Sequence record: MH464253
Length of the DNA stretch: 40,387 nt
Direction: 5' to 3' (one strand)
DNA from: Shigella phage SFPH2
Position numbers and translations under genes: made by a program. Shown piece by piece: positions 1-40,387 of this stretch. The notes beneath the pieces are model-generated. The model saw only the letters and a list, made by a program, of their open reading frames with translations, searched no databases and was not told the DNA's origin. Position 1 is the stretch's first letter, and each line of letters opens with the position of its first letter.

Positions 1-909
1 GCGACCTTTAGCCCAGTACCCACCACCAACCACCCCGGTCCACGGCTTAGGTGGCACGACGCAGGGCTGGTAAACTGGGGCAATTCCTGCCAGAGAGAAA
101 CCACGCTGAGCCATCTTCTTGACCCAGAAGTCAGACAGGTGGACCATCTCAACGTCTGCCGCAGCGTTGCCTGCACCGTAGCGCTTAAGCTCGACCAGTT
201 GTGAGGACTGGATGACCAGCTCAAGCATCTTGATGCCTACGTGAACAGCCTCGGTCGGACTCCAAGTCCCCCACGCGTCAGCCAGTTGTCCCTGCTCAAG
301 CATAGACGCCTCGACTGCCTGCATGTAGGCCTTCTTGTAGCTTGCGCCAGCGCGTTTCTTCAGGTTCTCCGCGATGGTCTTCTTGAAGTGCTCCTGCTCC
401 TGCTCACGGATGCGACCAAAGCGGATTTCATCTTCCAGTGTGCGACCTATCGCGGATGCCATAGGAGTTATCGGAATGCCTTCAGGCTTGACCAGCTTGC
501 TGAGGATGACTTTCAGTATGATGACCGCAGCAGACTCCGCAGAGATTAGCAGAGAGCGGTCTTTGACAGCCTTCTCGTCAGTGCTCATCATGGTAAACGC
601 CACGCTTGGACGTGAGGTCGAGGACTTACCGTCCGGGCCTTCATGCCACTCACGCACAGCCTTAGCGATGGTCGGAACCAGTGTTTGCATCAGAGGTTTA
701 GCGACCTGATTGTCTGCCAGCTCCCCGCGCTCGGTCTGACGCTCAAGGTTCTTAATGAAACGTCGCTCACCTTCAGTGTATGCCTCATGCTCTAGCTGGA
801 GCTGTTTGACTGCGAGGTCTTGCCCGTAGTGGTCAGCCAGTACGTTGAAAGGTTCGATTGCATTCGACACATCAGAGAAGTCGTGTTTGTCAATTGAGAT
901 GACGCTCAT
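1..909 (-). CDS. gp1: DNA-directed RNA polymerase, N-terminal part (gene cut by window boundary; continues at 40387..38615)
   Basis: ATG at 909..907 with AAGGA 9 nt upstream; translation MSVISIDKHDFSD...FGRIREQEQEHFKK...PCVVPPKPWTGVVGGGYWAKGR is colinear with T7 RNAP N-terminus; frame runs off position 1 with a complete codon. Confidence 0.93.
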   Translation of the reverse strand, partial: MSVISIDKHDFSDVSNAIEPFNVLADHYGQDLAVKQLQLEHEAYTEGERRFIKNLERQTERGELADNQVAKPLMQTLVPTIAKAVREWHEGPDGKSSTSRPSVAFTMMSTDEKAVKDRSLLISAESAAVIILKVILSKLVKPEGIPITPMASAIGRTLEDEIRFGRIREQEQEHFKKTIAENLKKRAGASYKKAYMQAVEASMLEQGQLADAWGTWSPTEAVHVGIKMLELVIQSSQLVELKRYGAGNAAADVEMVHLSDFWVKKMAQRGFSLAGIAPVYQPCVVPPKPWTGVVGGGYWAKGR

Positions 910-984: not shown

Positions 985-1007
985 GAGTCCTTTAGTGATA
1001 GTTTAGT
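985..1007 (-). promoter_or_regulatory. Phage-promoter-like element upstream of gene 1 (ACTAAACTATCACTAAAGGACTC); variant of the consensus, also half of a 10-bp inverted repeat
   Basis: 17 of 19 upstream positions match the phage promoter consensus but TATAGGG is replaced by TAAAGGA; ATCACTAAAG (plus 944-953 region) pairs with CTTTAGTGAT (988-997). Confidence 0.35.
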
Positions 1008-1688: not shown

Positions 1689-2423
1689 TCACTCAGCTAT
1701 TGCGTTCAGCCTGCCTTGCAGCTCGTCTTGATGGTCTGCCTGAGTCCAAGACACTGGGTCTGTGATTATCAGTCGCCCGTTGTTATCAACCATCACATTA
1801 GCGCGGTGTGTGTCGAATGATGCCAGCCCGTAGAAGAAACTGTTAATCTTCTTAGCAGTCTGCGCAAGGTCCTTGATATACTGGGCCTCGACGTGTGCAA
1901 ACTCAGCCCGTGCGTCTTGGTCCAGCCACCAGCTCAGGGCCTCAGACGGTTGCTCGCAATGGTCTATTATCGCGTTGACTACACGCCACGACACGTTTAA
2001 GACTCGCTGCTCGTAGGTCTCACCATCCCGGCAGTAGTCACCGCCGATGTCATTCAGTGAGCGGTACTTATCCATAGCCACCATGTAGGCCCTGCTGAAG
2101 CGCTTGACCAGATGGATGACCGGAAGCCCAGCCAGACCCTCGTTCTCTCGGCAGAAGGCCGCATATGCAGCGCCTGAGTCATCCTTCTTAAAGCCTACCT
2201 TGATTGCATATCCCGGCAGGTCCTCATGCTCAAAGGCAGCGGCGAAATGTCCAAGGCCTAACAGCTTGTAACCATGTTCCCGCGCCAGTATCTCAAAGGC
2301 TCCCCAGCGAGGTTGACCAGCTATGCCAGCGCTAGAGTCTTCAATCTTGTAGCACTCCTCGCAGATGATAGCGTGGAGCTGAGACATCAGGTTATTCATG
2401 ATTACTTTATCGTGTGCGTTCAT
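1689..2423 (-). CDS. gp0.7: Serine/threonine protein kinase (T7 gp0.7-type kinase domain only)
   Basis: LGLGHFAAAF...AIKVGFKKDDSGAAYAAFCR...ITDPVS blocks match T7 gp0.7 kinase domain; ATG at 2423 (MNAHDK) has AAGGAAAC SD, the track start at 2456 is TTG; about 115 residues shorter than T7 gp0.7. Confidence 0.85.
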   Translation of the reverse strand: MNAHDKVIMNNLMSQLHAIICEECYKIEDSSAGIAGQPRWGAFEILAREHGYKLLGLGHFAAAFEHEDLPGYAIKVGFKKDDSGAAYAAFCRENEGLAGLPVIHLVKRFSRAYMVAMDKYRSLNDIGGDYCRDGETYEQRVLNVSWRVVNAIIDHCEQPSEALSWWLDQDARAEFAHVEAQYIKDLAQTAKKINSFFYGLASFDTHRANVMVDNNGRLIITDPVSWTQADHQDELQGRLNAIAE

Positions 2424-2515: not shown

Positions 2516-2863
2516 CTAGACCTCCACCGCGATGGTCGTCATCTTGGTTACAGTAAGTCCGCCAGCCAGCTCGACTGCATAGCGTATCGCCTCTTCTTTG
2601 GACTTAAAGTCCTTACCAGCAAGGTGGTATGTGTCCCCTGTTATTACCTTAGATGGACTGCGACTTACCGCAATAGCGTTTTCCATGGCAAGCTCACCAC
2701 GGCTATACTGAGTAAACCAGCGCTTCACCGAACTCGTCCCCACCCCGAACTTTTGGGCTGTTTCCGTCACCCTATCCATAACGCCCTCAGGTAGAGAGGT
2801 GTAGTATTCAACAACGTTGAGTTTAAATGCTAACGAGAATACATTGCGAGTTTTAGCAGTCAT
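2516..2863 (-). CDS. Early protein with putative N-terminal helix-turn-helix (115 aa)
   Basis: ETAQKFGVGTSSVKRWFTQY resembles transposase/sigma-type HTH (A..GVS..T..RW); SD GAAGGAAAG upstream. Confidence 0.6.
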   Translation of the reverse strand: MTAKTRNVFSLAFKLNVVEYYTSLPEGVMDRVTETAQKFGVGTSSVKRWFTQYSRGELAMENAIAVSRSPSKVITGDTYHLAGKDFKSKEEAIRYAVELAGGLTVTKMTTIAVEV

Positions 2864-2884
2864 TATTCTTTCCTTCTATATTTG

Positions 2885-2940
2885 TCAAGTGGTAATCACT
2901 CAGGCCACCATGTAGATGACCTGTAGTTTAACACTCAGTA
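2885..2940 (-). promoter_or_regulatory. Conserved RNA hairpin B (candidate RNase III processing site)
   Basis: CAGGUCAUC-UACAU-GGUGGCCUG with two G-U wobbles, same flanks as hairpins A, C, D. Confidence 0.5.
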
Positions 2941-3060
2941 CCCGCCTGTCAGCGTTATGGTTAGCGCATGGTGGTTAGCCGTGTAGCAGGCCCCGCGCTT
3001 CATCAGCTCGACGAGACCATCATAGAACGCCTGCTCGCTGCTGTAGCTTATCGTGTACAT
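2935..3060 (-). CDS. Small hypothetical ORF (41 aa)
   Basis: ATG overlapping upstream stop (TGATG); MYTISYSSEQAFYDGLVELMKRGACYTANHHALTITLTGGY; below track length cutoff. Confidence 0.3.
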   Translation of the reverse strand: MYTISYSSEQAFYDGLVELMKRGACYTANHHALTITLTGGY

Positions 3061-3263
3061 CAGTAGAACCTCCTTGCGTACTTGAGGAAAGCGCCATCAC
3101 GCAGAATCTCCCAGTCTCCCCAGCTCAGGCTATAGCTATGCGGAAGTTTGAACTCCTTGTTAACGTGTATGCTTGACCGTATGGTCACAAACTTGGAGTC
3201 GCCCACGGTCTCAATATCAACCGTTATCCACGGCTTGATGTGATTAGGGTATGAGTTAATCAT
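3060..3263 (-). CDS. Hypothetical early protein (67 aa, 0.4 position)
   Basis: ATG at 3263 (MINSYPNH) directly after SAMase stop with GGGAGGTGG SD; track start at 3296 lies inside SAMase. Confidence 0.5.
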   Translation of the reverse strand: MINSYPNHIKPWITVDIETVGDSKFVTIRSSIHVNKEFKLPHSYSLSWGDWEILRDGAFLKYARRFY

Positions 3264-3264
3264 C

Positions 3265-3717
3265 TTACACCACCTCCCAGAACCGACCTTCAGCATCTTT
3301 CGTGAAGCATTCGCCCTTTGGTGCCTCGACTTGCTGGAATGCCCCGTTCAGACGTGTGGTCTTGTAGCCATCCAGACCTTTGCAGAACATCAGGCCAGCC
3401 GTGTGAGTCTGAGACTTGTAGACCATCACGCAGTCTTGCTCAAAGTCATTGCAGGCCAGCCGCGCAACGTTGATAGCCTGAGCTTTGGACTCACAGCGCA
3501 CACGATATGTTCTCTCCTCAGTGGCGACCTCTTGCCCTTCCTCGCGGTAGCATCCTGTAAGCCCAGTGCATTCGAGCACACCGTAGTAGTCTGGCTCAGC
3601 TTGTAGCAGTGCCTTAAGGTCTAACTGACGGCCCATGTTCACTATGTCTGACAGTCCAGCACGAGCGGCTGACACGAGCACATAGAAGACGTTAGCTGGT
3701 TCGTTAGTGTAAATCAT
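3265..3717 (-). CDS. gp0.3: S-adenosyl-L-methionine hydrolase/lyase (T3 gene 0.3-type SAMase, anti-restriction)
   Basis: MIYTNEPANVFYVLVSA...TGCYRE...VRC.SKAQAINVARLACN..EQDCVMVYKSQTHTAGL matches T3 SAMase as recalled, near-identical length (150 aa). Confidence 0.88.
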   Translation of the reverse strand: MIYTNEPANVFYVLVSAARAGLSDIVNMGRQLDLKALLQAEPDYYGVLECTGLTGCYREEGQEVATEERTYRVRCESKAQAINVARLACNDFEQDCVMVYKSQTHTAGLMFCKGLDGYKTTRLNGAFQQVEAPKGECFTKDAEGRFWEVV

Positions 3718-3931
3718 GATGTGTATCCTTTAAGTGTGAGTGATTATCATAAAGAGACCTGAGGCGCTCATCTTGAGCCTGACCCGCAGTAGCCAACAAG
3801 TCTCTTGAGTTAATCGCTTACTATCGGCGCACATTAAGAGTTATCCAGATTGTTAAAGAGCATTCGCTTGGCTGTCGTCGCCTCGCTAGCCTGTTTCAGT
3901 GTTAGGCTTCACTGTCGTTTCGATGTGGTTC

Positions 3932-3961
3932 ATACTACTTTAAGTCGTTACTGCTTGTCAA
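3932..3961 (-). promoter_or_regulatory. Candidate host sigma70 promoter (TTGACA-N18-TAGTAT), rightward/sense
   Basis: Hexamers read on minus strand upstream of the early genes. Confidence 0.3.
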
Positions 3962-4076: not shown

Positions 4077-4105
4077 ATTAAACCAAAAGTCAGACCTACT
4101 GTCAA
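4077..4105 (-). promoter_or_regulatory. Candidate host sigma70 early promoter (TTGACA-N17-TTTAAT), rightward/sense
   Basis: Perfect -35 and 17-bp spacer on minus strand, ~360 bp upstream of SAMase. Confidence 0.4.
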
Positions 4106-4199: not shown

Positions 4200-4852
4200 A
4201 GTCCAGTTAGCAAGACACTAACTAATAACCCTAGTCAGCTATGGTCTCTGACTGCTAAACGGACCGGATGTGATAACCTGTGAGTCTAGACCTTAGGACT
4301 CTGATAAACTGAAGGTCGACATGGTGTCTATTGACTGTAGGTAGTGAGACTGTAGGTAGTCCCGTTACCAATGGATTGACTGTAGGTAGTGAGACTGAAG
4401 GTGATGACTCTAGGCTGATACAGATAGCGACTCAGGGACACAACATATAGTCCCGACCAATCGTCCCTACCACAAGATATAGGCCCTATCGGTCCAGACT
4501 TCGGGTCGACTTCGGGTCAAAGACTTGAGGTTTAGACCTTCGGTCTAGGGGTAGGGCCTTTGGTCGAGACTTAAAGAGGGCCTATGGGGAGACTTGAGGT
4601 TCTTGAACTGTGAGATGTGGTCTCAAACTTTTGGTCCAAAACTCATCGTCCCTACTGTAGGCCTCAGCCACTGTAGGTCAAGGACCGTAGGTCAGGCGAC
4701 ACTAGGGTAGACCAGTGAGTAGGATGACCCTAAGTGAGCTTCTCTTAAGGTGTTACCTAAAGTCCTTGACTACAGTAGCTAAGGTCAGTAGAGTAGCGTC
4801 AGCTATGAACTGACCTTAGGTCCGTCTTTCGTTGATTGTTACCATGATGGCG
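4200..4852. repeat. Repeat-rich non-coding terminal region (expected location of physical genome ends / terminal repeat / concatemer junction)
   Basis: No ORF of 60 codons or more on the coding strand; 22-bp perfect direct repeat TTGACTGTAGGTAGTGAGACTG at 4331-4352 and 4376-4397; recurring CTGTAGG, ATCGTCCCTAC, AGACTTGAGG, CTTCGGGTC motifs. Confidence 0.6.
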
Positions 4853-5185: not shown

Positions 5186-5208
5186 CTTCCCTATAGTGAT
5201 AGTTAAGT
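5186..5208 (-). promoter_or_regulatory. Phage RNAP promoter (phiOR position): ACTTAACTATCACTATAGGGAAG
   Basis: Full consensus match between terminase large subunit and gene 19.5. Confidence 0.85.
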
Positions 5209-8114: not shown

Positions 8115-10622
<2,508 letters not shown>

Positions 10623-10662: not shown

Positions 10663-10685
10663 GTTTCCTATAGTGATAGTTTAGT
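10663..10685 (-). promoter_or_regulatory. Phage RNAP promoter (phi17 position): ACTAAACTATCACTATAGGAAAC
   Basis: Consensus match overlapping gp16 stop, upstream of tail fibre. Confidence 0.85.
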
Positions 10686-23405: not shown

Positions 23406-23428
23406 TGTTCCTATAGTGATAGTTAAGC
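23406..23428 (-). promoter_or_regulatory. Phage RNAP promoter (phi9 position): CTTAACTATCACTATAGGAACAA
   Basis: Consensus match overlapping portal 3' end. Confidence 0.85.
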
Positions 23429-26369: not shown

Positions 26370-27239
26370 CTACATGGAGGGTGTCCACAGAATGACCTCC
26401 TTGGACTTAGGGTCGTAGTCAGATGCCCGACAGATGCGAGCGACCTGAGCTTGGACCAGTAGTTCCTGTTCGGTCATCCCGGCTTTAGCAGCCAGAGTCA
26501 CCATGCAGTCCCACAACGTCTGGTCTTCGCGCTTCGGATACTTCTTCCACTCTACCTTGAGCTGACCTTTGTTCTTACCAGTCTTCAGCTCGCGGGTCTC
26601 TTGCACGAAGTAGTACGGCTCGTCAAGGAAAGCACGGGTAGTGTCCTCACCGTACCCCGGAATACCGCCGTAACCATCCGTCATGTCACCCTTGATGGTC
26701 TGCTCCATGTGCCAGTAATCTGCCTCGGCAGTCGTGTGGCTCAGGATTTCACCAGTGGTTAACCAGAAGAACTCACAGTTCGGGATAGTCTTGAAGTCCT
26801 TATCACAGGACACCAGCACCGCATGGTCGCAGCCCACAATCTGAGGGCGCGTACCAATGATTCCCATACAGTCATCTCCCTCAAGCGTTGGCTTCAGGAA
26901 GCTGTTGAACCGTGGGTCAGCCATCACTTCAGCTACGAACTTCTTGTATCCTACAGGCTTTCGAGAACCTTTACGGTTGGCCTTATAGGTGGGAAGTACG
27001 TCCTTGCGCCAGTTGGCGTCATCGGTGAAGCACATCACAATCTTAGCGTCTTTCCACGCCTTGCGCTTCTTGACGATTTCAGCGATGGTGTTCTCAAGGA
27101 TACGACGGGCTTTCTCGTGGTCGCAGATAAGGGTCCAGATGTCGTCGCCCCAGTCAGTCTCATCTTCAGCCGCAGCCATAGAGGAGAAGACAAGATAGTC
27201 GCCATCAAGCACCAGAGCTATCTTCTTCTCAGAACCCAT
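26370..27239 (-). CDS. gp6: 5'-3' exonuclease
   Basis: 289 aa; DGD.LVF...CDH.KAR.ILE, NWRK...YKANRK..KPVGY, LEGDD.MG.I, SCDKDFKTIPNC.F.W.TTG, KGD.TDGY.GI.G, TLWDC...AKAGMTE match T7 gp6. Confidence 0.95.
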   Translation of the reverse strand: MGSEKKIALVLDGDYLVFSSMAAAEDETDWGDDIWTLICDHEKARRILENTIAEIVKKRKAWKDAKIVMCFTDDANWRKDVLPTYKANRKGSRKPVGYKKFVAEVMADPRFNSFLKPTLEGDDCMGIIGTRPQIVGCDHAVLVSCDKDFKTIPNCEFFWLTTGEILSHTTAEADYWHMEQTIKGDMTDGYGGIPGYGEDTTRAFLDEPYYFVQETRELKTGKNKGQLKVEWKKYPKREDQTLWDCMVTLAAKAGMTEQELLVQAQVARICRASDYDPKSKEVILWTPSM

Positions 27240-27678
27240 CGTCCAGACCTCCCGTAGCCATAGTGACCGTAGCTGGCATCAAGGAAACTTTAGGCTCCTC
27301 AATACGTTCCAGAGTTACCTCAGGCTTCAGCCATTTGTTGGCGAACTCATGGGCCATGTCATTGTCCTCTGAGTTGAGGTGTGACATCAGGCTCCAGAAG
27401 TTTGAAGACATCTCGGTCTCCTTCTCAACCGGGCGATATACGCCCCAGTCATTTACCTCTGAGCCGTAGCTGTCGCCCCACATACCACTGGCTACGATGG
27501 TCAGGCCGATGAACGGACGCCACTCGTAAGCCTCAGAGGGAGACTCGGCGTATGACTCAACGTCCTTCTCGGTCAGGGTGTATGACCAAGATGCGTAGAA
27601 CTCAGCGTACTTTCGGTGCTCCTTCTCGCACTCGCCCATTTCAAGGACCAGCTCTTTCAGACTTTCAGGTATCTTCAT
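27229..27678 (-). CDS. Acidic, aromatic-rich hypothetical protein (149 aa) at the gp5.9 locus
   Basis: ATG at 27678 in ATGA overlap with gp5.7 stop, GGAGG SD; about 29 Asp/Glu vs 13 Lys/Arg, many Trp/Tyr; track start at 27732 lies inside gp5.7. Confidence 0.6.
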   Translation of the reverse strand: MKIPESLKELVLEMGECEKEHRKYAEFYASWSYTLTEKDVESYAESPSEAYEWRPFIGLTIVASGMWGDSYGSEVNDWGVYRPVEKETEMSSNFWSLMSHLNSEDNDMAHEFANKWLKPEVTLERIEEPKVSLMPATVTMATGGLDDGF

Positions 27679-28170: not shown

Positions 28171-28653
28171 TTACTCCTGTTTAAATTGTCCGTACTTCTT
28201 GTCAGACGTTAAGTTTATACACATAGAGGTCTTGACTCTAACCTCTTCAGTGAACGGTATAAGCCAGAGGCAATCCTGATAAACAACCGCTAGTAGGTCG
28301 ATGTCTCCCGGACTGTAAGTTGGCTTACCGCATCCTCCCAGCCTTACCTGTATGCTATTACAGTTCTTCAGCTTCGTTCCGGTCTTGACCTGAACCCTAG
28401 TAAGGGTCCCGTCTATATCGACCACCAAGTCTGCCTTTGACTGCGTGAATGCTGGGAGGAATACTTGATGCCCTTTGGCTGTCAGCCTATAGCTTACATA
28501 TAGCTCACTAGCAGCACCAGTGAAGTGCTGGGACTTTCCGTCAATGGCATTCTTTCCACGTTGGTCCAATCTTACCCTCCGTATCAAGTTCACACTTGAA
28601 GTTATAGAAGCGTCCGACCTCACGCATAGCCTCTTGAGCAATACGGACGACAT
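28171..28653 (-). CDS. Hypothetical protein overlapping DNA polymerase 3' end (160 aa); possible PD-(D/E)xK-like motif
   Basis: Only ATG (28653, SD AGGAGA) lies 113 nt inside gene 5 in another frame; SELYV...ADLVVDIDG...VQVK spacing resembles E..D..(E/Q)xK nuclease core. Confidence 0.45.
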   Translation of the reverse strand: MSSVLLKRLCVRSDASITSSVNLIRRVRLDQRGKNAIDGKSQHFTGAASELYVSYRLTAKGHQVFLPAFTQSKADLVVDIDGTLTRVQVKTGTKLKNCNSIQVRLGGCGKPTYSPGDIDLLAVVYQDCLWLIPFTEEVRVKTSMCINLTSDKKYGQFKQE

Positions 28654-33114: not shown

Positions 33115-33137
33115 CATCCCTAAGGTGATAGTTTAGC
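33115..33137 (-). promoter_or_regulatory. Phage RNAP promoter variant upstream of primase-helicase: GCTAAACTATCACCTTAGGGATG
   Basis: Consensus with 2 substitutions; transcript starts with GGGAUGAGAC-CAUGA-GUCUUGUCCC stem-loop. Confidence 0.65.
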
Positions 33138-35211: not shown

Positions 35212-35234
35212 TGTTCCTAAAGTGATAGTTTAGT
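35212..35234 (-). promoter_or_regulatory. Phage RNAP promoter variant (phi2.5 position): ACTAAACTATCACTTTAGGAACA
   Basis: Consensus with one substitution, overlapping gp2 stop, upstream of SSB. Confidence 0.7.
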
Positions 35235-36061: not shown

Positions 36062-36084
36062 TTGTCCTATAGTGATAGCTTAGT
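36062..36084 (-). promoter_or_regulatory. Phage RNAP promoter (phi1.5/1.6 position): CTAAGCTATCACTATAGGACAAC
   Basis: Consensus match after ligase and early terminator. Confidence 0.8.
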
Positions 36085-37293: not shown

Positions 37294-37581
37294 TTAAAGG
37301 AATCGACCAGTGTAGTCGTTGAACTGTTTGTTAAACCAAGTGGCAACCGCTACGGTCTGCACATCTTCGTCATGAATATTCGGGTACTCCGTGAAGTCCT
37401 TCTCGATGAGGACCTCTTTCGTATGGCTGTGGACTATAACCGCCCGGACGCAGTGCCTGTTCATCATTGGGTCGAACCAAGTGCTTACCACTGCGTTATA
37501 GTCGGTCTCGGACTGCCAGTTGTGAATAGCTCTGCGGAGGGTGTTCAGGTTTCCACTATGCGCTCTTGAGAACATGCCCAT
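37294..37581 (-). CDS. gp1.2: gp1.2-like protein (host dGTPase inhibitor in T7)
   Basis: 95 aa; SGNL, HDEDV and W..W features similar to recalled T7 gp1.2; synteny after gene 1.1. Confidence 0.7.
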   Translation of the reverse strand: MGMFSRAHSGNLNTLRRAIHNWQSETDYNAVVSTWFDPMMNRHCVRAVIVHSHTKEVLIEKDFTEYPNIHDEDVQTVAVATWFNKQFNDYTGRFL

Positions 37582-37838: not shown

Positions 37839-37857
37839 CCTATAGTGATAGTTTAGA
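37835..37857 (-). promoter_or_regulatory. Phage RNAP promoter (phi1.1 position): CTAAACTATCACTATAGGATTAG
   Basis: Consensus match upstream of gene 1.1, overlapping the stop of the 156-aa ORF. Confidence 0.85.
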
Positions 37858-38614: not shown

Positions 38615-40387
38615 TTAGGCGAATGCAAAGTCAGATAGCAGAATGTCTTCGATGTTCAGTTTACCGCGCTTCGGCAGCTCAGGCAATTTGTCGCGCTGGC
38701 TCTCATGAAGCTGGTCCTCGAACTGCTCGTAGAAGTCTTGCAGAACATCGTTGTCTCGGTAGGTCTCGACCATCGTCTCACGGACTCCCTTGAACAGGAA
38801 CTCAGCGTCTGCCGGGATGGTCCCAAAGCTGTCGTGAATCACCGCGAAGGACATCACGCCATACTTGCGGTGGGTATGGACTACAGTCTTCCTCAGGTGA
38901 CTGCCATCCTGTGAGTGTACAAAGTTAGGGCTGATACCGGACTCCTGCTTGTGCTTGTCCAGCTCTTTCTTCGACCCTTTGTTGACTGTCGGTTGCAGGT
39001 TGAACGACCCAAGGAACAGGAGGTTCAGCCGTGTGGTGTCTTTCTTGCGGTATTCCTGCCAGACCGGGAACCCATCAGGTGTTACCCAGTGTACCGGAAG
39101 GCAAGGCTTCAGGATTTCGCCAGTCTTCTTGTCCTTCACTTCAGCAGCCAGTAGCTTGGCAGCGCCTTGAAGCCACTTCATCGCGTCAACCGCAGCAACT
39201 ACGGTCACACTCACGGCGTCCCATATCATCTTAGCCATGAAGCGAGACGCTTGGCTTGGGTCGGTGAACATTGCGCCTTTACCGCTGTCAATCGCTGGCA
39301 TCACGGTGTCCTCAAACACTTGGTCCGCGAACCCGTATTCTTTCGACCCGTAGGCCAGAGTCATGACCGAGCGTTTAGTGACCGAGCGTGACATCCCGTA
39401 GGTCAGCCACTGTCGAGCCAGCTCACGGGTCCCAAGGACCAGACGCTCAGTAATCTCGCCTGTCTTCTTGTCCTCAAAGGTCTTCATTTCGTTGTCGCTC
39501 CCGTTGACCAGCAGTTCCTTGAGCTGTTCTTCCACCCGGTCGGACACAATGCGGTAGATGTCTTGGACCTTCCCGCTTGGCGTCAGGTTTACCGCATGTC
39601 CACCAACGTGGTCACGGAGCATAGCGCTGAAGTGCTGAATCCCGGAGCAGGACCCATCGAACGCGATAGGCAGTGAGCAGGAGTAACTCAGCCCGTGGTG
39701 CATGACTCCAGCATACTCAAAGCAGAACGCTAGGAAGCAGAACGGAGAGTCTAACCGGCCCCACCAATCAATGCTGTCCATCGGATTCTTTGCTGCTGAG
39801 AGGATGTTGTCGTGGTTGTCTTCGACCCACTTGATGCGCTCCTCAAAGGTGACTTTATCGACACCCGCGCAGTTTGCACCATGTACCTTCAGCCATTTGA
39901 AGCCGTCCGCACCGATTGGTTTACCGACCGCCAGAGTCAGCAGGCCCTTCTGCATATCGTTGCCTTGAGGGTTGAACATCGGGACAGCGTACACTCGGCC
40001 CCGCCAGTCCATGTTGTACGGGAACCAGATGGCCTTAAACTGAGAGAACTTGTTAGCCTGTGAGACGATGAAGCTCAGGGACAAGCGGCGCGACTGTCGG
40101 GCCTTCTCGCGTCGATAGATGCCAGCCGCAGACTTCTTCCAAGCCTTAAGCTCCTCCTCGGTCTCACCCGCATAGTCTTCAGGCTTCAGTGGCTCCATCT
40201 GAGGGATGTCAGCGATAGGCGTGTTATTCAGCTTCTCGACCATGTTCACCACTTCCAGCACCTTCTTGTTTACCTTCCAAGGAGTCTGCTGAATGATGTT
40301 CACTGCCTCTACCACTTCAGGCATGTACACGTCTTCGTAGCGCTGGACCGCAGCCTTAGACCCTAAGCGAATCAGTGGTAGAGGTCT
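38615..40387 (-). CDS. gp1: DNA-directed RNA polymerase, C-terminal part (continuation of 909..1 across the circular junction)
   Basis: Frame open to window edge; ...RYEDVYMPEV, FPYNMDWRGRVYAV.MFNPQGNDM.KGLLTLA, SPFCFLAFCFEYAGV.HHGLSY, GIQHFSAMLRD, SVMTLAYGSKE, HDSFGT, ends DFAFA as T7 RNAP. Confidence 0.97.
   Translation of the reverse strand, partial: RPLPLIRLGSKAAVQRYEDVYMPEVVEAVNIIQQTPWKVNKKVLEVVNMVEKLNNTPIADIPQMEPLKPEDYAGETEEELKAWKKSAAGIYRREKARQSRRLSLSFIVSQANKFSQFKAIWFPYNMDWRGRVYAVPMFNPQGNDMQKGLLTLAVGKPIGADGFKWLKVHGANCAGVDKVTFEERIKWVEDNHDNILSAAKNPMDSIDWWGRLDSPFCFLAFCFEYAGVMHHGLSYSCSLPIAFDGSCSGIQHFSAMLRDHVGGHAVNLTPSGKVQDIYRIVSDRVEEQLKELLVNGSDNEMKTFEDKKTGEITERLVLGTRELARQWLTYGMSRSVTKRSVMTLAYGSKEYGFADQVFEDTVMPAIDSGKGAMFTDPSQASRFMAKMIWDAVSVTVVAAVDAMKWLQGAAKLLAAEVKDKKTGEILKPCLPVHWVTPDGFPVWQEYRKKDTTRLNLLFLGSFNLQPTVNKGSKKELDKHKQESGISPNFVHSQDGSHLRKTVVHTHRKYGVMSFAVIHDSFGTIPADAEFLFKGVRETMVETYRDNDVLQDFYEQFEDQLHESQRDKLPELPKRGKLNIEDILLSDFAFA

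What the first reader, a model, noticed from the sequence alone, without database searches (positions are those of the whole stretch)
3265..3717. T3-type SAM hydrolase in a genome whose promoters are not T3-type (mosaic early region)
Gene 0.3 encodes a clear homolog of the T3 SAMase rather than a T7 Ocr-type DNA mimic, so anti-restriction here is presumably by SAM depletion or methyltransferase inhibition. Together with the distinct promoter specificity this points to a lineage separate from both T7 and T3, with counter-defence split between SAMase, kinase, gp1.2 and the acidic 149-aa protein.
Basis: partly seen in the sequence, partly recalled or inferred. Interest (0 to 1): 0.4.

Follow-up and report, generated by a model that had tools for sequence, protein, structure and literature searches.

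The report
T3-type SAM lyase in K1F-like phage
The first early gene of this T7-like phage genome encodes an ordinary, probably active copy of the phage T3 enzyme that destroys the host's S-adenosylmethionine to escape restriction, in a well-known phage genus (K1F-like) where close relatives already carry and annotate the same gene.

Summary
Confirmed but ordinary. The ORF at 3265..3717 lies on the minus strand and encodes 150 aa. It is a full-length T3-type SAM lyase: Pfam PF23780 at 1.2e-39, and 62% identity to T3 gp0.3 (PDB 7OCK/8BB1, E 1e-56). The predicted fold matches 8BB1 with TM 0.92. All SAM-binding residues (G55, Y57, E68, Q94, D95) are kept, as are the strictly conserved MetK-contact residues (T4, N9, Q103, T104, H105).

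The window is a whole, circularly permuted, reverse-complemented Kayfunavirus (K1F-like) genome. It has 12 K1F-type promoters (AACTATCACTATAGG) and a K1F-type RNA polymerase specificity loop. Core proteins are mostly 85-97% identical to K1F and 45-72% to T3.

The SAMase is as diverged from T3's as the RNA polymerase is (both about 62%), so it was not recently imported from a T3-like phage. The early region is mosaic, but within the genus. The slot between a conserved RNase III-type leader and a conserved 41-aa ORF holds different cargo in different relatives:
- SAMase plus a DUF7300 gene here and in GW1;
- Ocr in K1F and SAKp10309;
- unknown genes in SH4;
- a deletion remnant in Dev2.

Near-identical genes are already annotated as SAM hydrolase. 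The acidic 149-aa protein has no support as a counter-defence factor. Novelty: already known. Interest is low.

The parts
3265..3717 (-). Gene 0.3: T3-type S-adenosylmethionine lyase (SAMase), 150 aa plus stop
   Evidence: ORF. PF23780 at 1.2e-39. T3 SAMase 7OCK/8BB1 at E 1e-56. AF2 model pLDDT 90.7, TM 0.92 to 8BB1_E. G55, Y57, E67, E68, Q94, D95 and T4, N9, Q103, T104, H105 are identical to T3.
3726..3730 (-). Shine-Dalgarno AAGGA, 8 nt upstream of the ATG
   Evidence: Read from the sequence.
3737..3820 (-). R0.3-like leader hairpin (candidate RNase III site). It is conserved upstream of gene 0.3 whether the cargo is SAMase or Ocr, and forms the upstream edge of the exchangeable cassette.
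   Evidence: Aligns with the annotated T3 R0.3 element and with T7, K1F, SH4, SAKp10309, Dev2 and GW1. Folds at -30.7 kcal/mol, z = -2.0. Homology to the Ocr-carrying SAKp10309 ends at 3724 and to SH4 at 3720.
3932..3961 (-). Sigma-70 promoter candidate, A3-like (TTGACA, 18 nt, TAGTAT)
   Evidence: Consensus scan, 10 of 12 matches. Lies in the stretch homologous to T3 672-838, which holds T3 promoter A3.
4077..4105 (-). Second sigma-70 promoter candidate (TTGACA, 17 nt, TTTAAT), A1-like by position
   Evidence: Read by eye. The scan did not report it because its rule requires an A at position 2 of the -10 hexamer. Inference only.
4430..4615 (-). Genome left end and collapsed terminal repeat. 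Position 4615 matches base 1 of K1F and SH4; the inner limit is approximate.
   Evidence: Exact 30-nt match of the SH4/K1F left terminus at 4615. blastn to position 1 of K1F, T3 and SH4. The K1F repeat is 178 bp and the SH4 repeat 191 bp. The ATG of gene 0.3 lies 899 nt from the end; in T3 it is at 901.
3060..3263 (-). Small gene after the SAMase (67 aa, DUF7300). It starts 1 nt after the SAMase stop and has a GGAGG Shine-Dalgarno. Together with the SAMase it forms the swapped unit 3061..3723.
   Evidence: PF23974 at 2.2e-26. Start context. Absent from SAKp10309, SH4 and K1F, where homology resumes at 3060. Also found in Acinetobacter and Pseudomonas phages.
2935..3060 (-). Conserved 41-aa ORF, forming the downstream edge of the exchangeable cassette
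   Evidence: phrog_33188. Homology with SAKp10309 and SH4 resumes exactly here.
2516..2863 (-). 115-aa helix-turn-helix-like ORF: a second variable cassette
   Evidence: Weak BrkDBD/HTH Pfam hits. Absent from SAKp10309, SH4, K1F and T3. Its C-terminal 60 aa are fused to the SAMase N-terminus in Dev2.
1689..2423 (-). gp0.7-type protein kinase, 244 aa, kinase domain only
   Evidence: phrog_15752 at 5.6e-115. Aligns only with residues 4-219 of the 359-aa T7 gp0.7. Absent from K1F and SH4.
1..909 (-). Gene 1 RNA polymerase, 5' part (codons 1-303); continues at 40387
   Evidence: 893 aa across the window junction, 93.8% identical to K1F and 63.8% to T3.
38615..40387 (-). Gene 1 RNA polymerase, 3' part, including the K1F-type specificity loop
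   Evidence: loop VWQEYRKKDTTRLNLLFLGSFNLQPTVNKGSKKELDKHKQE against K1F VWQEYRKKDTTRLNLMFLGSFNLQPTVNKGTKKELDKHKQE.
989..1003 (-). K1F-type phage promoter-like site just upstream of gene 1 (AACTATCACTAAAGG)
5190..5204 (-). K1F-type phage promoter (phiOR position)
10667..10681 (-). K1F-type phage promoter
17952..17966 (-). K1F-type phage promoter
22414..22428 (-). K1F-type phage promoter (upstream of the capsid gene)
23410..23424 (-). K1F-type phage promoter
26229..26243 (-). K1F-type phage promoter
30770..30784 (-). K1F-type phage promoter (1 mismatch)
33119..33133 (-). K1F-type phage promoter (2 mismatches)
35216..35230 (-). K1F-type phage promoter (1 mismatch)
36066..36080 (-). K1F-type phage promoter (1 mismatch)
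37839..37853 (-). K1F-type phage promoter

Best explanation
The ORF is the gene 0.3 orthologue of a K1F-like (Kayfunavirus) phage. It encodes a functional T3-type SAM lyase. It is the first gene to enter the cell, about 0.9 kb from the left genome end. Host RNA polymerase transcribes it from sigma-70 promoters through a conserved R0.3-type leader.

The protein most likely works as T3 gp0.3 does. It cleaves S-adenosylmethionine into methylthioadenosine and homoserine lactone. It also binds the host SAM synthetase MetK through its N-terminal tail and its beta4-beta5 loop. Together these lower SAM and so disable SAM-dependent defences (type I restriction-modification, BREX).

Its presence next to non-T3 promoters does not reflect a T3 hybrid. 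The gene is one of several alternative cargoes of an exchangeable early-region slot that circulates within the Kayfunavirus gene pool.

Shown here: homology, conserved residues, predicted fold, gene position, promoter type and cassette boundaries. Inferred: enzymatic activity, MetK binding, transcription by host polymerase and the anti-restriction phenotype.
For: Family and fold:
- PF23780 at 1.2e-39.
- T3 SAMase 7OCK/8BB1 at E 1e-56, full length.
- A profile of 39 homologues hits only the T3 SAMase in the PDB, at 2e-77.
- AF2 model pLDDT 90.7; Foldseek match to 8BB1_E at TM 0.92, rmsd 1.6 A.

Residues:
- G55, Y57, E67, E68, Q94 and D95 are identical to T3. E68, Q94 and D95 are the mutationally tested residues (PMC7877911; bioRxiv 10.1101/2023.02.27.530186).
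- The MetK contacts T4, N9, Q103, T104 and H105, reported as strictly conserved, are identical here and invariant in 39 homologues.

Position and expression signals:
- The ATG lies 899 nt from the left end, preceded by a Shine-Dalgarno sequence, the R0.3-like leader and sigma-70-like promoters.

Lineage:
- Core proteins are mostly 85-97% identical to K1F and 45-72% to T3. RNA polymerase is 62.3% and SAMase 62.3% identical to T3.
- Promoters and the specificity loop are K1F-type. The K1F loop and promoter were shown to be orthogonal to those of T3 and T7 (PMC3458549).

Slot variability:
- GW1 is collinear at 92-97% nucleotide identity and annotates the gene as SAM hydrolase.
- K1F and SAKp10309 carry Ocr in the slot. 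SH4 carries phrog_336 and phrog_11084. Dev2 carries an in-frame deletion remnant.
- About 32 phage records carry this SAMase clade at 80% identity or more, against about 220 records with RNA polymerase at 80% or more.
Against: - No activity data exist for this protein or for any Kayfunavirus SAMase that I found.
- Two MetK-contacting N-terminal residues differ from T3 (F3Y, K5N), and the host is unknown, so MetK binding is not certain.
- The T3 internal start 0.3B has a GAGGTGA Shine-Dalgarno sequence that is missing here, so isoform usage may differ.
- The promoter and RNase III assignments are by consensus and homology only. The leader fold has a z-score of only -2.0.
Confidence: 0.85

Rival explanations
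1. Recent horizontal import. The SAMase was acquired from a T3-like (Teetrevirus) phage by a K1F-like backbone, so the genome is a T3/K1F chimera.
For: The gene is absent from K1F itself and from SH4, whose late region is 95% identical in nucleotide sequence. The 0.3 slot is clearly exchangeable.
Against: - SAMase identity to T3 (62.3%) equals that of the RNA polymerase (62.3%) and lies inside the range of the core genes (45-72%).
- In the evenly spaced sample of hit rows, the records at 86-97% identity are phages whose early region matches this window at 87-91% nucleotide identity, or for one of them an unchecked Escherichia phage. T3-group hits begin at about 63%.
- G+C of the gene (0.536) equals the core-gene mean of 0.535.
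- Outside the SAMase, T3 shares only short weak DNA matches with the early region.
Confidence: 0.05
2. The protein has lost lyase activity and acts only as a MetK-binding inhibitor, or has another function.
For: The catalytically dead T3 E68Q/Q94A mutant still partly inhibits BREX through MetK, so a binding-only protein could be selected.
Against: Every residue known to matter for SAM binding or catalysis is retained and conserved across the clade. The predicted fold is intact.
Confidence: 0.05
3. The gene is a decaying remnant that is not expressed and has no role in the phage.
For: The close relative Dev2 carries a truncated fusion remnant (SAMase residues 1-46 joined to the tail of the HTH ORF). 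This shows the gene is dispensable in some settings.
Against: Here the ORF is full length, with a Shine-Dalgarno sequence, conserved leader and promoters. It is 95-97% identical to intact copies in other isolates and metagenome contigs.
Confidence: 0.03

Closest known systems
Bacteriophage T3 gp0.3 SAMase / SAM lyase (PDB 7OCK, 8BB1; Pfam PF23780)
   Same: - Same family and length (150 against 152 aa), 62% identity, same predicted nine-strand barrel with two helices.
- Identical SAM-binding residues and identical conserved MetK-contact residues.
- Same genome position: first early gene, about 900 nt from the left end, behind host promoters and an R0.3-type leader.
   Different: - The host genome belongs to another genus, with K1F-type RNA polymerase and promoters.
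- F3Y and K5N in the MetK-binding tail.
- A 2-residue deletion near position 131.
- No Shine-Dalgarno sequence for the internal 0.3B start.
- Followed by a DUF7300 gene that T3 lacks.
SAMase genes of Kayfunavirus isolates (Cronobacter phage GW1, Shigella phages SFP21A/SFP21B/SFP20, Enterobacter phage EP1, Salmonella phage CHRF_30116.1)
   Same: The proteins of Salmonella phage CHRF_30116.1, Dickeya phage Monomax, Klebsiella phage P7124 and Escherichia phage P1723 are 87-97% identical. GW1 has the same early gene order: SAMase, DUF7300, 41-aa ORF, HTH ORF, kinase. In GW1, the SFP phages and EP1 the gene is already annotated as S-adenosyl-L-methionine hydrolase.
   Different: Only sequence-level differences in the early region. 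The late region of this genome is closer to SH4, SH5 and Dev2 (95% nucleotide identity) than GW1's is.
T7 / K1F Ocr (gp0.3 DNA mimic)
   Same: Occupies the same slot behind the same conserved leader. Presumably serves the same purpose of escaping type I restriction and BREX.
   Different: Unrelated protein and mechanism (DNA mimicry). No Ocr homologue is present in this window.
Svi3-3-type trimeric SAM lyases (PDB 6ZM9)
   Same: Same reaction according to PMC7877911, and equivalent G/Y/E/Q/acidic SAM-binding residues in that paper's structure-guided alignment.
   Different: No detectable sequence similarity, even with a profile. Only a weak fold hit (TM 0.35-0.39, probability 0.92). [quoted passage not shown]

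Membership tests
T3-type SAM lyase (Pfam PF23780 S-AdoMet_lyase) | Sequence match to the family model above the curated threshold, over the full length | tested here: met
   135.7 bits against a cut-off of 28, residues 13-149 on profile positions 1-132 of 133. T3 SAMase at E 1e-56 over residues 1-149.
T3-type SAM lyase (Pfam PF23780 S-AdoMet_lyase) | SAM-binding and catalytic residues (T3 numbering G55, Y57, E68, Q94, D95) | tested here: met
   All identical, with the same numbering. G55, Q94 and D95 are invariant in the 21-sequence alignment. In the 39-sequence alignment Q94 and D95 are invariant and G55 and E68 are at least 90% conserved. The roles of the residues come from PMC7877911 and bioRxiv 10.1101/2023.02.27.530186.
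T3-type SAM lyase (Pfam PF23780 S-AdoMet_lyase) | Monomer fold: nine-stranded beta barrel with two outer helices | tested here: met
   AF2 pLDDT 90.7 with nine strands and two long helices. TM 0.92 and rmsd 1.6 A to 8BB1_E. This is a prediction, not an experiment.
T3-type SAM lyase (Pfam PF23780 S-AdoMet_lyase) | MetK-contact residues reported as strictly conserved (T4, N9, Q103, T104, H105) | tested here: met
   All present and invariant among homologues. The non-conserved contacts F3 and K5 are Y and N here.
T3-type SAM lyase (Pfam PF23780 S-AdoMet_lyase) | First early gene at the left genome end, under host promoters | tested here: met
   ATG 899 nt from the left terminus. Sigma-70-like promoters and the R0.3-like leader lie upstream. 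No phage promoter lies between the terminus and the gene.
T3-type SAM lyase (Pfam PF23780 S-AdoMet_lyase) | Cleavage of SAM to MTA plus homoserine lactone; anti-restriction and anti-BREX phenotype | not testable with these tools
   Needs an enzyme assay and plating experiments.
Ocr-type DNA mimic (T7 gp0.3) | Sequence homology to T7 or K1F Ocr anywhere in the genome | tested here: not met
   tblastn of T7, K1F and SAKp10309 Ocr against the window gives a best E of 0.067.
Svi3-3-type SAM lyase | Detectable sequence or fold relationship to Svi3-3 (6ZM9) | tested here: inconclusive
   The profile search of the PDB does not reach it at E up to 10. Foldseek rank 6, E 7e-3, TM 0.35-0.39, 10% identity.
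Kayfunavirus (K1F-like Studiervirinae) | K1F-type promoters and RNA polymerase specificity loop; high identity of core proteins to K1F | tested here: met
   12 promoters identical in core to the K1F promoters. The loop differs from K1F at 2 of 41 positions. RNA polymerase is 93.8%, portal 96.9%, capsid 95.7% and terminase 93.4% identical to K1F. The nearest records are classified as Kayfunavirus.
Teetrevirus (T3-like) | T3-type promoters (AACCCTCACTAAAGGGAGA) and T3-level core identity | tested here: not met
   One site within 2 mismatches of the T3 core, against 15 in T3. Core proteins are 45-72% identical to T3.

The most novel reading that the evidence does not exclude
The stretch between the conserved R0.3-type leader (about 3720) and the conserved 41-aa ORF (3060) is a dedicated exchange site for counter-defence cargo in K1F-like phages.

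If so, the uncharacterised genes that travel in and beside it would be unrecognised anti-defence or host-takeover factors. These are the DUF7300 gene 3060..3263, the HTH-like ORF 2516..2863 and, in SH4, phrog_336 and phrog_11084. Natural variants such as Dev2 (SAMase deleted) would then be ready-made isogenic tests.
Probability: 0.2. Interest if true: 0.4.

Novelty: already known. Interest (0 to 1): 0.1.

Why it matters
It matters little beyond correct annotation. The gene should be named SAM lyase (SAMase). It is not a 'SAM-dependent methyltransferase', as PHROG and RefSeq label it, and strictly not a hydrolase. It predicts that this phage resists type I restriction-modification and BREX through SAM depletion.

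The set of near-isogenic Kayfunaviruses could serve as a natural panel for comparing counter-defence strategies on one backbone. They carry a SAMase, Ocr, unknown cargo or a deletion at the same slot.

Tried and rejected
- Sequence link to Svi3-3. Neither phmmer nor a 39-sequence profile against the PDB reached it. Only a weak fold hit appeared.
- A second anti-restriction gene of Ocr type, or a gp5.9 homologue, elsewhere in the window. None was found.
- Compositional sign of recent acquisition. G+C of the SAMase and of the cassette equals that of the core genes.
- The DUF7300 gene as an obligate SAMase partner. Rejected: most of its homologues are in Acinetobacter and Pseudomonas phages. I did not check whether those phages carry a SAMase.
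- SH4 gp2 as a divergent Ocr. Rejected: BLASTP E 38 against K1F Ocr, and a different PHROG.
- The acidic 149-aa protein as a DNA mimic or counter-defence factor. It matches phrog_4382 (unknown function) and no Pfam family. The AF2 model reached only pLDDT 73.6, and there was no PDB fold match below E 0.38. Nothing supports or excludes a role.
- An apparent stop or frameshift in gene 1 at the window edge. This was an artefact of the circular permutation. The RNA polymerase reads through 909..1 and then 40387..38615 as 893 aa.
- The K1F genome paper (PMC1317022) is not held in the library.

Full report
**Observation**

The coordinates 3265..3717 correspond exactly to an ATG-initiated ORF of 150 codons plus stop, on the minus strand.
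- It matches Pfam PF23780 (S-AdoMet_lyase) at 1.2e-39, 135.7 bits against a cut-off of 28, and PHROG 2226 at 1.4e-46.
- It matches the T3 SAMase chains of PDB 7OCK and 8BB1 at E 9.6e-57 over residues 1-149 with a single 2-residue gap.
- Identity to T3 gp0.3 is 62.3%.
- No Ocr homologue exists anywhere in the window.

**What the window is**

All long ORFs lie on the minus strand. The RNA polymerase gene starts at 909, runs off position 1 and continues in frame from 40387 to 38615, giving 893 aa with no stop. The window is therefore a complete T7-like genome, reverse-complemented and circularly permuted. The physical left terminus (TCTCACAGTTCAAGAACC...) sits at 4615 and is identical to the first 30 bases of K1F and SH4.

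Protein-by-protein comparison places the genome in the K1F group:

| Protein | Identity to K1F | Identity to T3 |
|---|---|---|
| RNA polymerase | 93.8% | 62.3% |
| Primase-helicase | 91.7% | 64.9% |
| Portal | 96.9% | 66.1% |
| Capsid | 95.7% | 72.0% |
| Terminase | 93.4% | 65.1% |

The nearest records are classified as Kayfunavirus. GW1, SFP21A and EP1 match the early region at 93-95% nucleotide identity. SH4, SH5 and Dev2 match the late region at 95% over 97% of it.

**Promoters**

- AACTATCACTATAGG (up to 3 mismatches) occurs 12 times, always on the coding strand, against 0.77 expected.
- The sites are the same as the 11 K1F promoters. No such site exists in T3, and the T3 core is essentially absent here.
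- The polymerase specificity loop differs from K1F at 2 of 41 positions and is unlike those of T3 and T7.
- The K1F loop and promoter pair has been shown experimentally to be orthogonal to T3 and T7 (PMC3458549).

'Promoters are not T3-type' is confirmed. The 'separate lineage', however, is a named and well-populated genus: about 220 phage records have an RNA polymerase at least 80% identical.

**Is the enzyme likely to work?**

T3 numbering transfers directly, because the two proteins align without gaps up to about residue 130.
- The residues that the Svi3-3 and T3 studies identify as binding SAM in its reactive conformation are all identical: G55, Y57, E68, Q94 and D95 in T3, with mutants E68Q, Q94A and D95A impaired (PMC7877911; bioRxiv 10.1101/2023.02.27.530186; residues checked).
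- The MetK-contact residues reported as strictly conserved among T3-like SAMases (T4, N9, Q103, T104, H105) are also identical here. They are invariant in my alignments of 21 and 39 homologues.
- Only the non-conserved contacts differ (F3Y, K5N).
- An AlphaFold model built on 39 homologues has pLDDT 90.7. It superposes on the cryo-EM T3 SAM lyase (8BB1_E) with TM 0.92 and rmsd 1.6 A.
- Svi3-3 (6ZM9) appears only as a weak fold hit (TM 0.35-0.39) and is not reached by a sequence profile. This agrees with the published statement that the similarity is barely detectable.

I therefore infer a dual-action protein like T3 gp0.3, combining a SAM lyase with a MetK inhibitor. Enzymatic activity and MetK binding are inferences, not observations.

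**Expression context**

- The ATG is 899 nt from the left end; in T3 it is at 901.
- It is preceded by AAGGA 8 nt upstream.
- Upstream of that lies a leader that aligns with the annotated T3 R0.3 RNase III element and with the equivalent regions of T7, K1F, SH4, SAKp10309, Dev2 and GW1. It folds at -30.7 kcal/mol, z = -2.0.
- There are sigma-70-like promoters at 3961..3932 (TTGACA, 18 nt, TAGTAT, in the stretch homologous to T3 promoter A3) and, by eye, at 4105..4077.
- No phage promoter lies between the terminus and the gene.

This is the classical class I arrangement.

**Mosaicism**

The claim is right, but not in the sense implied. The SAMase is exactly as far from T3's as the RNA polymerase is (62.3% each). 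Its G+C matches the core genes. Every sampled copy at 86% identity or more is in a phage with a Kayfunavirus-type early region, apart from one Escherichia phage I did not check. So nothing points to a recent import from a T3-like phage.

What varies is the content of one slot on very similar backbones.
- Homology to Klebsiella phage SAKp10309 stops at 3724 and resumes at 3060.
- Homology to Citrobacter phage SH4 stops at 3720 and resumes at 3060.
- The upstream junction falls right after the conserved leader. The downstream junction falls at the start of a conserved 41-aa ORF.

| Phage | Cargo between the two junctions |
|---|---|
| This genome, GW1 | SAMase plus a 67-aa DUF7300 gene |
| K1F, SAKp10309 | Ocr-like protein plus a 51-aa phrog_5058 gene |
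| SH4 | phrog_336, phrog_11084 (both unknown) and phrog_5058 |

These assignments rest.

Dev2 carries a 105-aa 'gp0.2'. It is an in-frame fusion of SAMase residues 1-46 to residues 56-115 of the neighbouring HTH-like ORF. That corresponds to a deletion of the equivalent of 3574..2699, which removes all the catalytic residues.

A second variable unit is the HTH-like ORF 2516..2863, and a third is the kinase, which K1F and SH4 lack. Hamdi et al. 2016 already noted that SH4/SH5 and Dev2 differ mostly in the early region (PMC4925675). Roughly 32 records carry this SAMase clade at 80% identity or more, out of about 220 Kayfunavirus-level records. The counts include duplicate RefSeq and GenBank entries, and the overlap of the two sets is inferred.

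**The other 'counter-defence' genes named in the finding**

- The kinase (1689..2423, 244 aa; phrog_15752 at 5.6e-115) aligns only with residues 4-219 of the 359-aa T7 gp0.7. It therefore has the kinase domain without the C-terminal part.
- gp1.2 is present at 37294..37581 (PF10922 and phrog_2949).
- The acidic 149-aa protein (27229..27678, pI 4.45) sits where T7 and T3 have gp5.9 but is unrelated to it. It belongs to phrog_4382 (unknown function) and has no Pfam match. Its distribution is patchy across 163 phage records. It gave a moderate model (pLDDT 73.6) with no PDB fold match. A counter-defence role is pure conjecture.

**Comparison with what is known, and novelty**

SAMase at the 0.3 locus of Studiervirinae other than Teseptimavirus is textbook. 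The BASEL study states that, at this locus, the phages it tested encode either Ocr (Teseptimavirus) or a SAM hydrolase (all other genera) (PMC8594841). tblastn finds the family in 495 phage records with various promoter specificities, including Klebsiella K11 and KP32, BA14 and Yersinia phages. In GW1, the SFP phages and EP1 the corresponding gene is annotated as S-adenosyl-L-methionine hydrolase, and the closest copy found, in Salmonella phage CHRF_30116.1, is 97.3% identical.

The finding is real, correctly read, and already known. The only mildly useful by-product is the precise definition of the exchangeable slot and of the natural variants that fill it.

**Verdict**

- Observation: confirmed.
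- Interpretation: partly supported.
- Novelty: already known.
- Interest: 0.1.

Noticed in passing
window 27229..27678 (-): Acidic 149-aa ORF (pI 4.45) in the slot where T7 and T3 have gp5.9, between the 5.7-like gene and the exonuclease gene. It matches phrog_4382 (unknown function) and no Pfam family. It is absent from K1F and T3, present in 163 phage records, and restricted to roughly 40-kb contigs in metagenomes. The AF2 model has pLDDT 73.6 with a disordered acidic tail (129-149). No PDB fold match was found.
   Followed up: partly
L006 (Cronobacter phage Dev2) 759..1076; equivalent to window 3574..2699: Dev2 'gp0.2', labelled SAM-dependent methyltransferase, is an in-frame fusion of SAMase residues 1-46 to residues 56-115 of the HTH-like ORF. 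It is a natural deletion that removes the catalytic part of the SAMase, the DUF7300 gene, the 41-aa ORF and the HTH N-terminus.
   Followed up: yes
window 1689..2423 (-): The gp0.7-type kinase is only 244 aa and aligns with residues 4-219 of the 359-aa T7 gp0.7. The C-terminal third is missing. The longer TTG-initiated ORF in the mechanical list (to 2456) has no Shine-Dalgarno sequence, whereas the ATG at 2423 has AAGGAA.
   Followed up: partly
window 2516..2863 (-): 115-aa basic ORF with weak helix-turn-helix hits (BrkDBD 6.9e-5). It is present in GW1 but absent from SAKp10309, SH4, K1F and T3, so it is a second variable early cassette of unknown function.
   Followed up: partly
window 3060..3263 (-): The DUF7300 gene directly follows the SAMase: its ATG is 1 nt after the SAMase stop, with a GGAGG Shine-Dalgarno sequence inside the SAMase 3' end. 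Most of its homologues are in Acinetobacter Friunavirus-like and Pseudomonas YuA-like phages. The mechanical ORF list gives a longer 78-aa version that overlaps the SAMase.
   Followed up: partly
window 989..1003 (-): A K1F-type promoter-like site lies immediately upstream of gene 1, with TAAAGG instead of TATAGG. It is the only site within 2 mismatches of the T3 core. K1F has an equivalent site at 2478. A phage promoter in front of the polymerase gene would give positive feedback, which T7 lacks.
   Followed up: no
window 3634..3661 (-): The T3 internal start 0.3B (M28) is conserved as a methionine. The T3 Shine-Dalgarno sequence GAGGTGA upstream of it is replaced by GACATAGTGAAC here and in GW1, so the short isoform may not be made.
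   Followed up: partly
window 28171..28653 (-): 160-aa ORF with a PD-(D/E)XK endonuclease domain (PF11645, 1e-10). It overlaps the 3' end of the DNA polymerase gene and has almost no counterpart in K1F or T3. It is possibly a homing-type endonuclease insertion.
   Followed up: no
window 8115..10613 (-): The 832-aa tail fibre or spike shares only its N-terminal 250 or so residues with K1F (53%) and T3 (34%). This region is covered in the matches to SH4, SH5 and Dev2, which are 95% identical in nucleotide sequence over 97% of the late region. That suggests a Citrobacter or Cronobacter-type host rather than K1 E. coli.
   Followed up: no
whole window: The genome looks recombinant within the genus. 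From the left end to the HTH ORF it is closest to GW1 (92% nucleotide identity). From the kinase to gene 1 it is close to both GW1 and Dev2 (93-98%). The late region is closest to SH4, SH5 and Dev2 (95%), and GW1 is not among the top late-region hits.
   Followed up: partly
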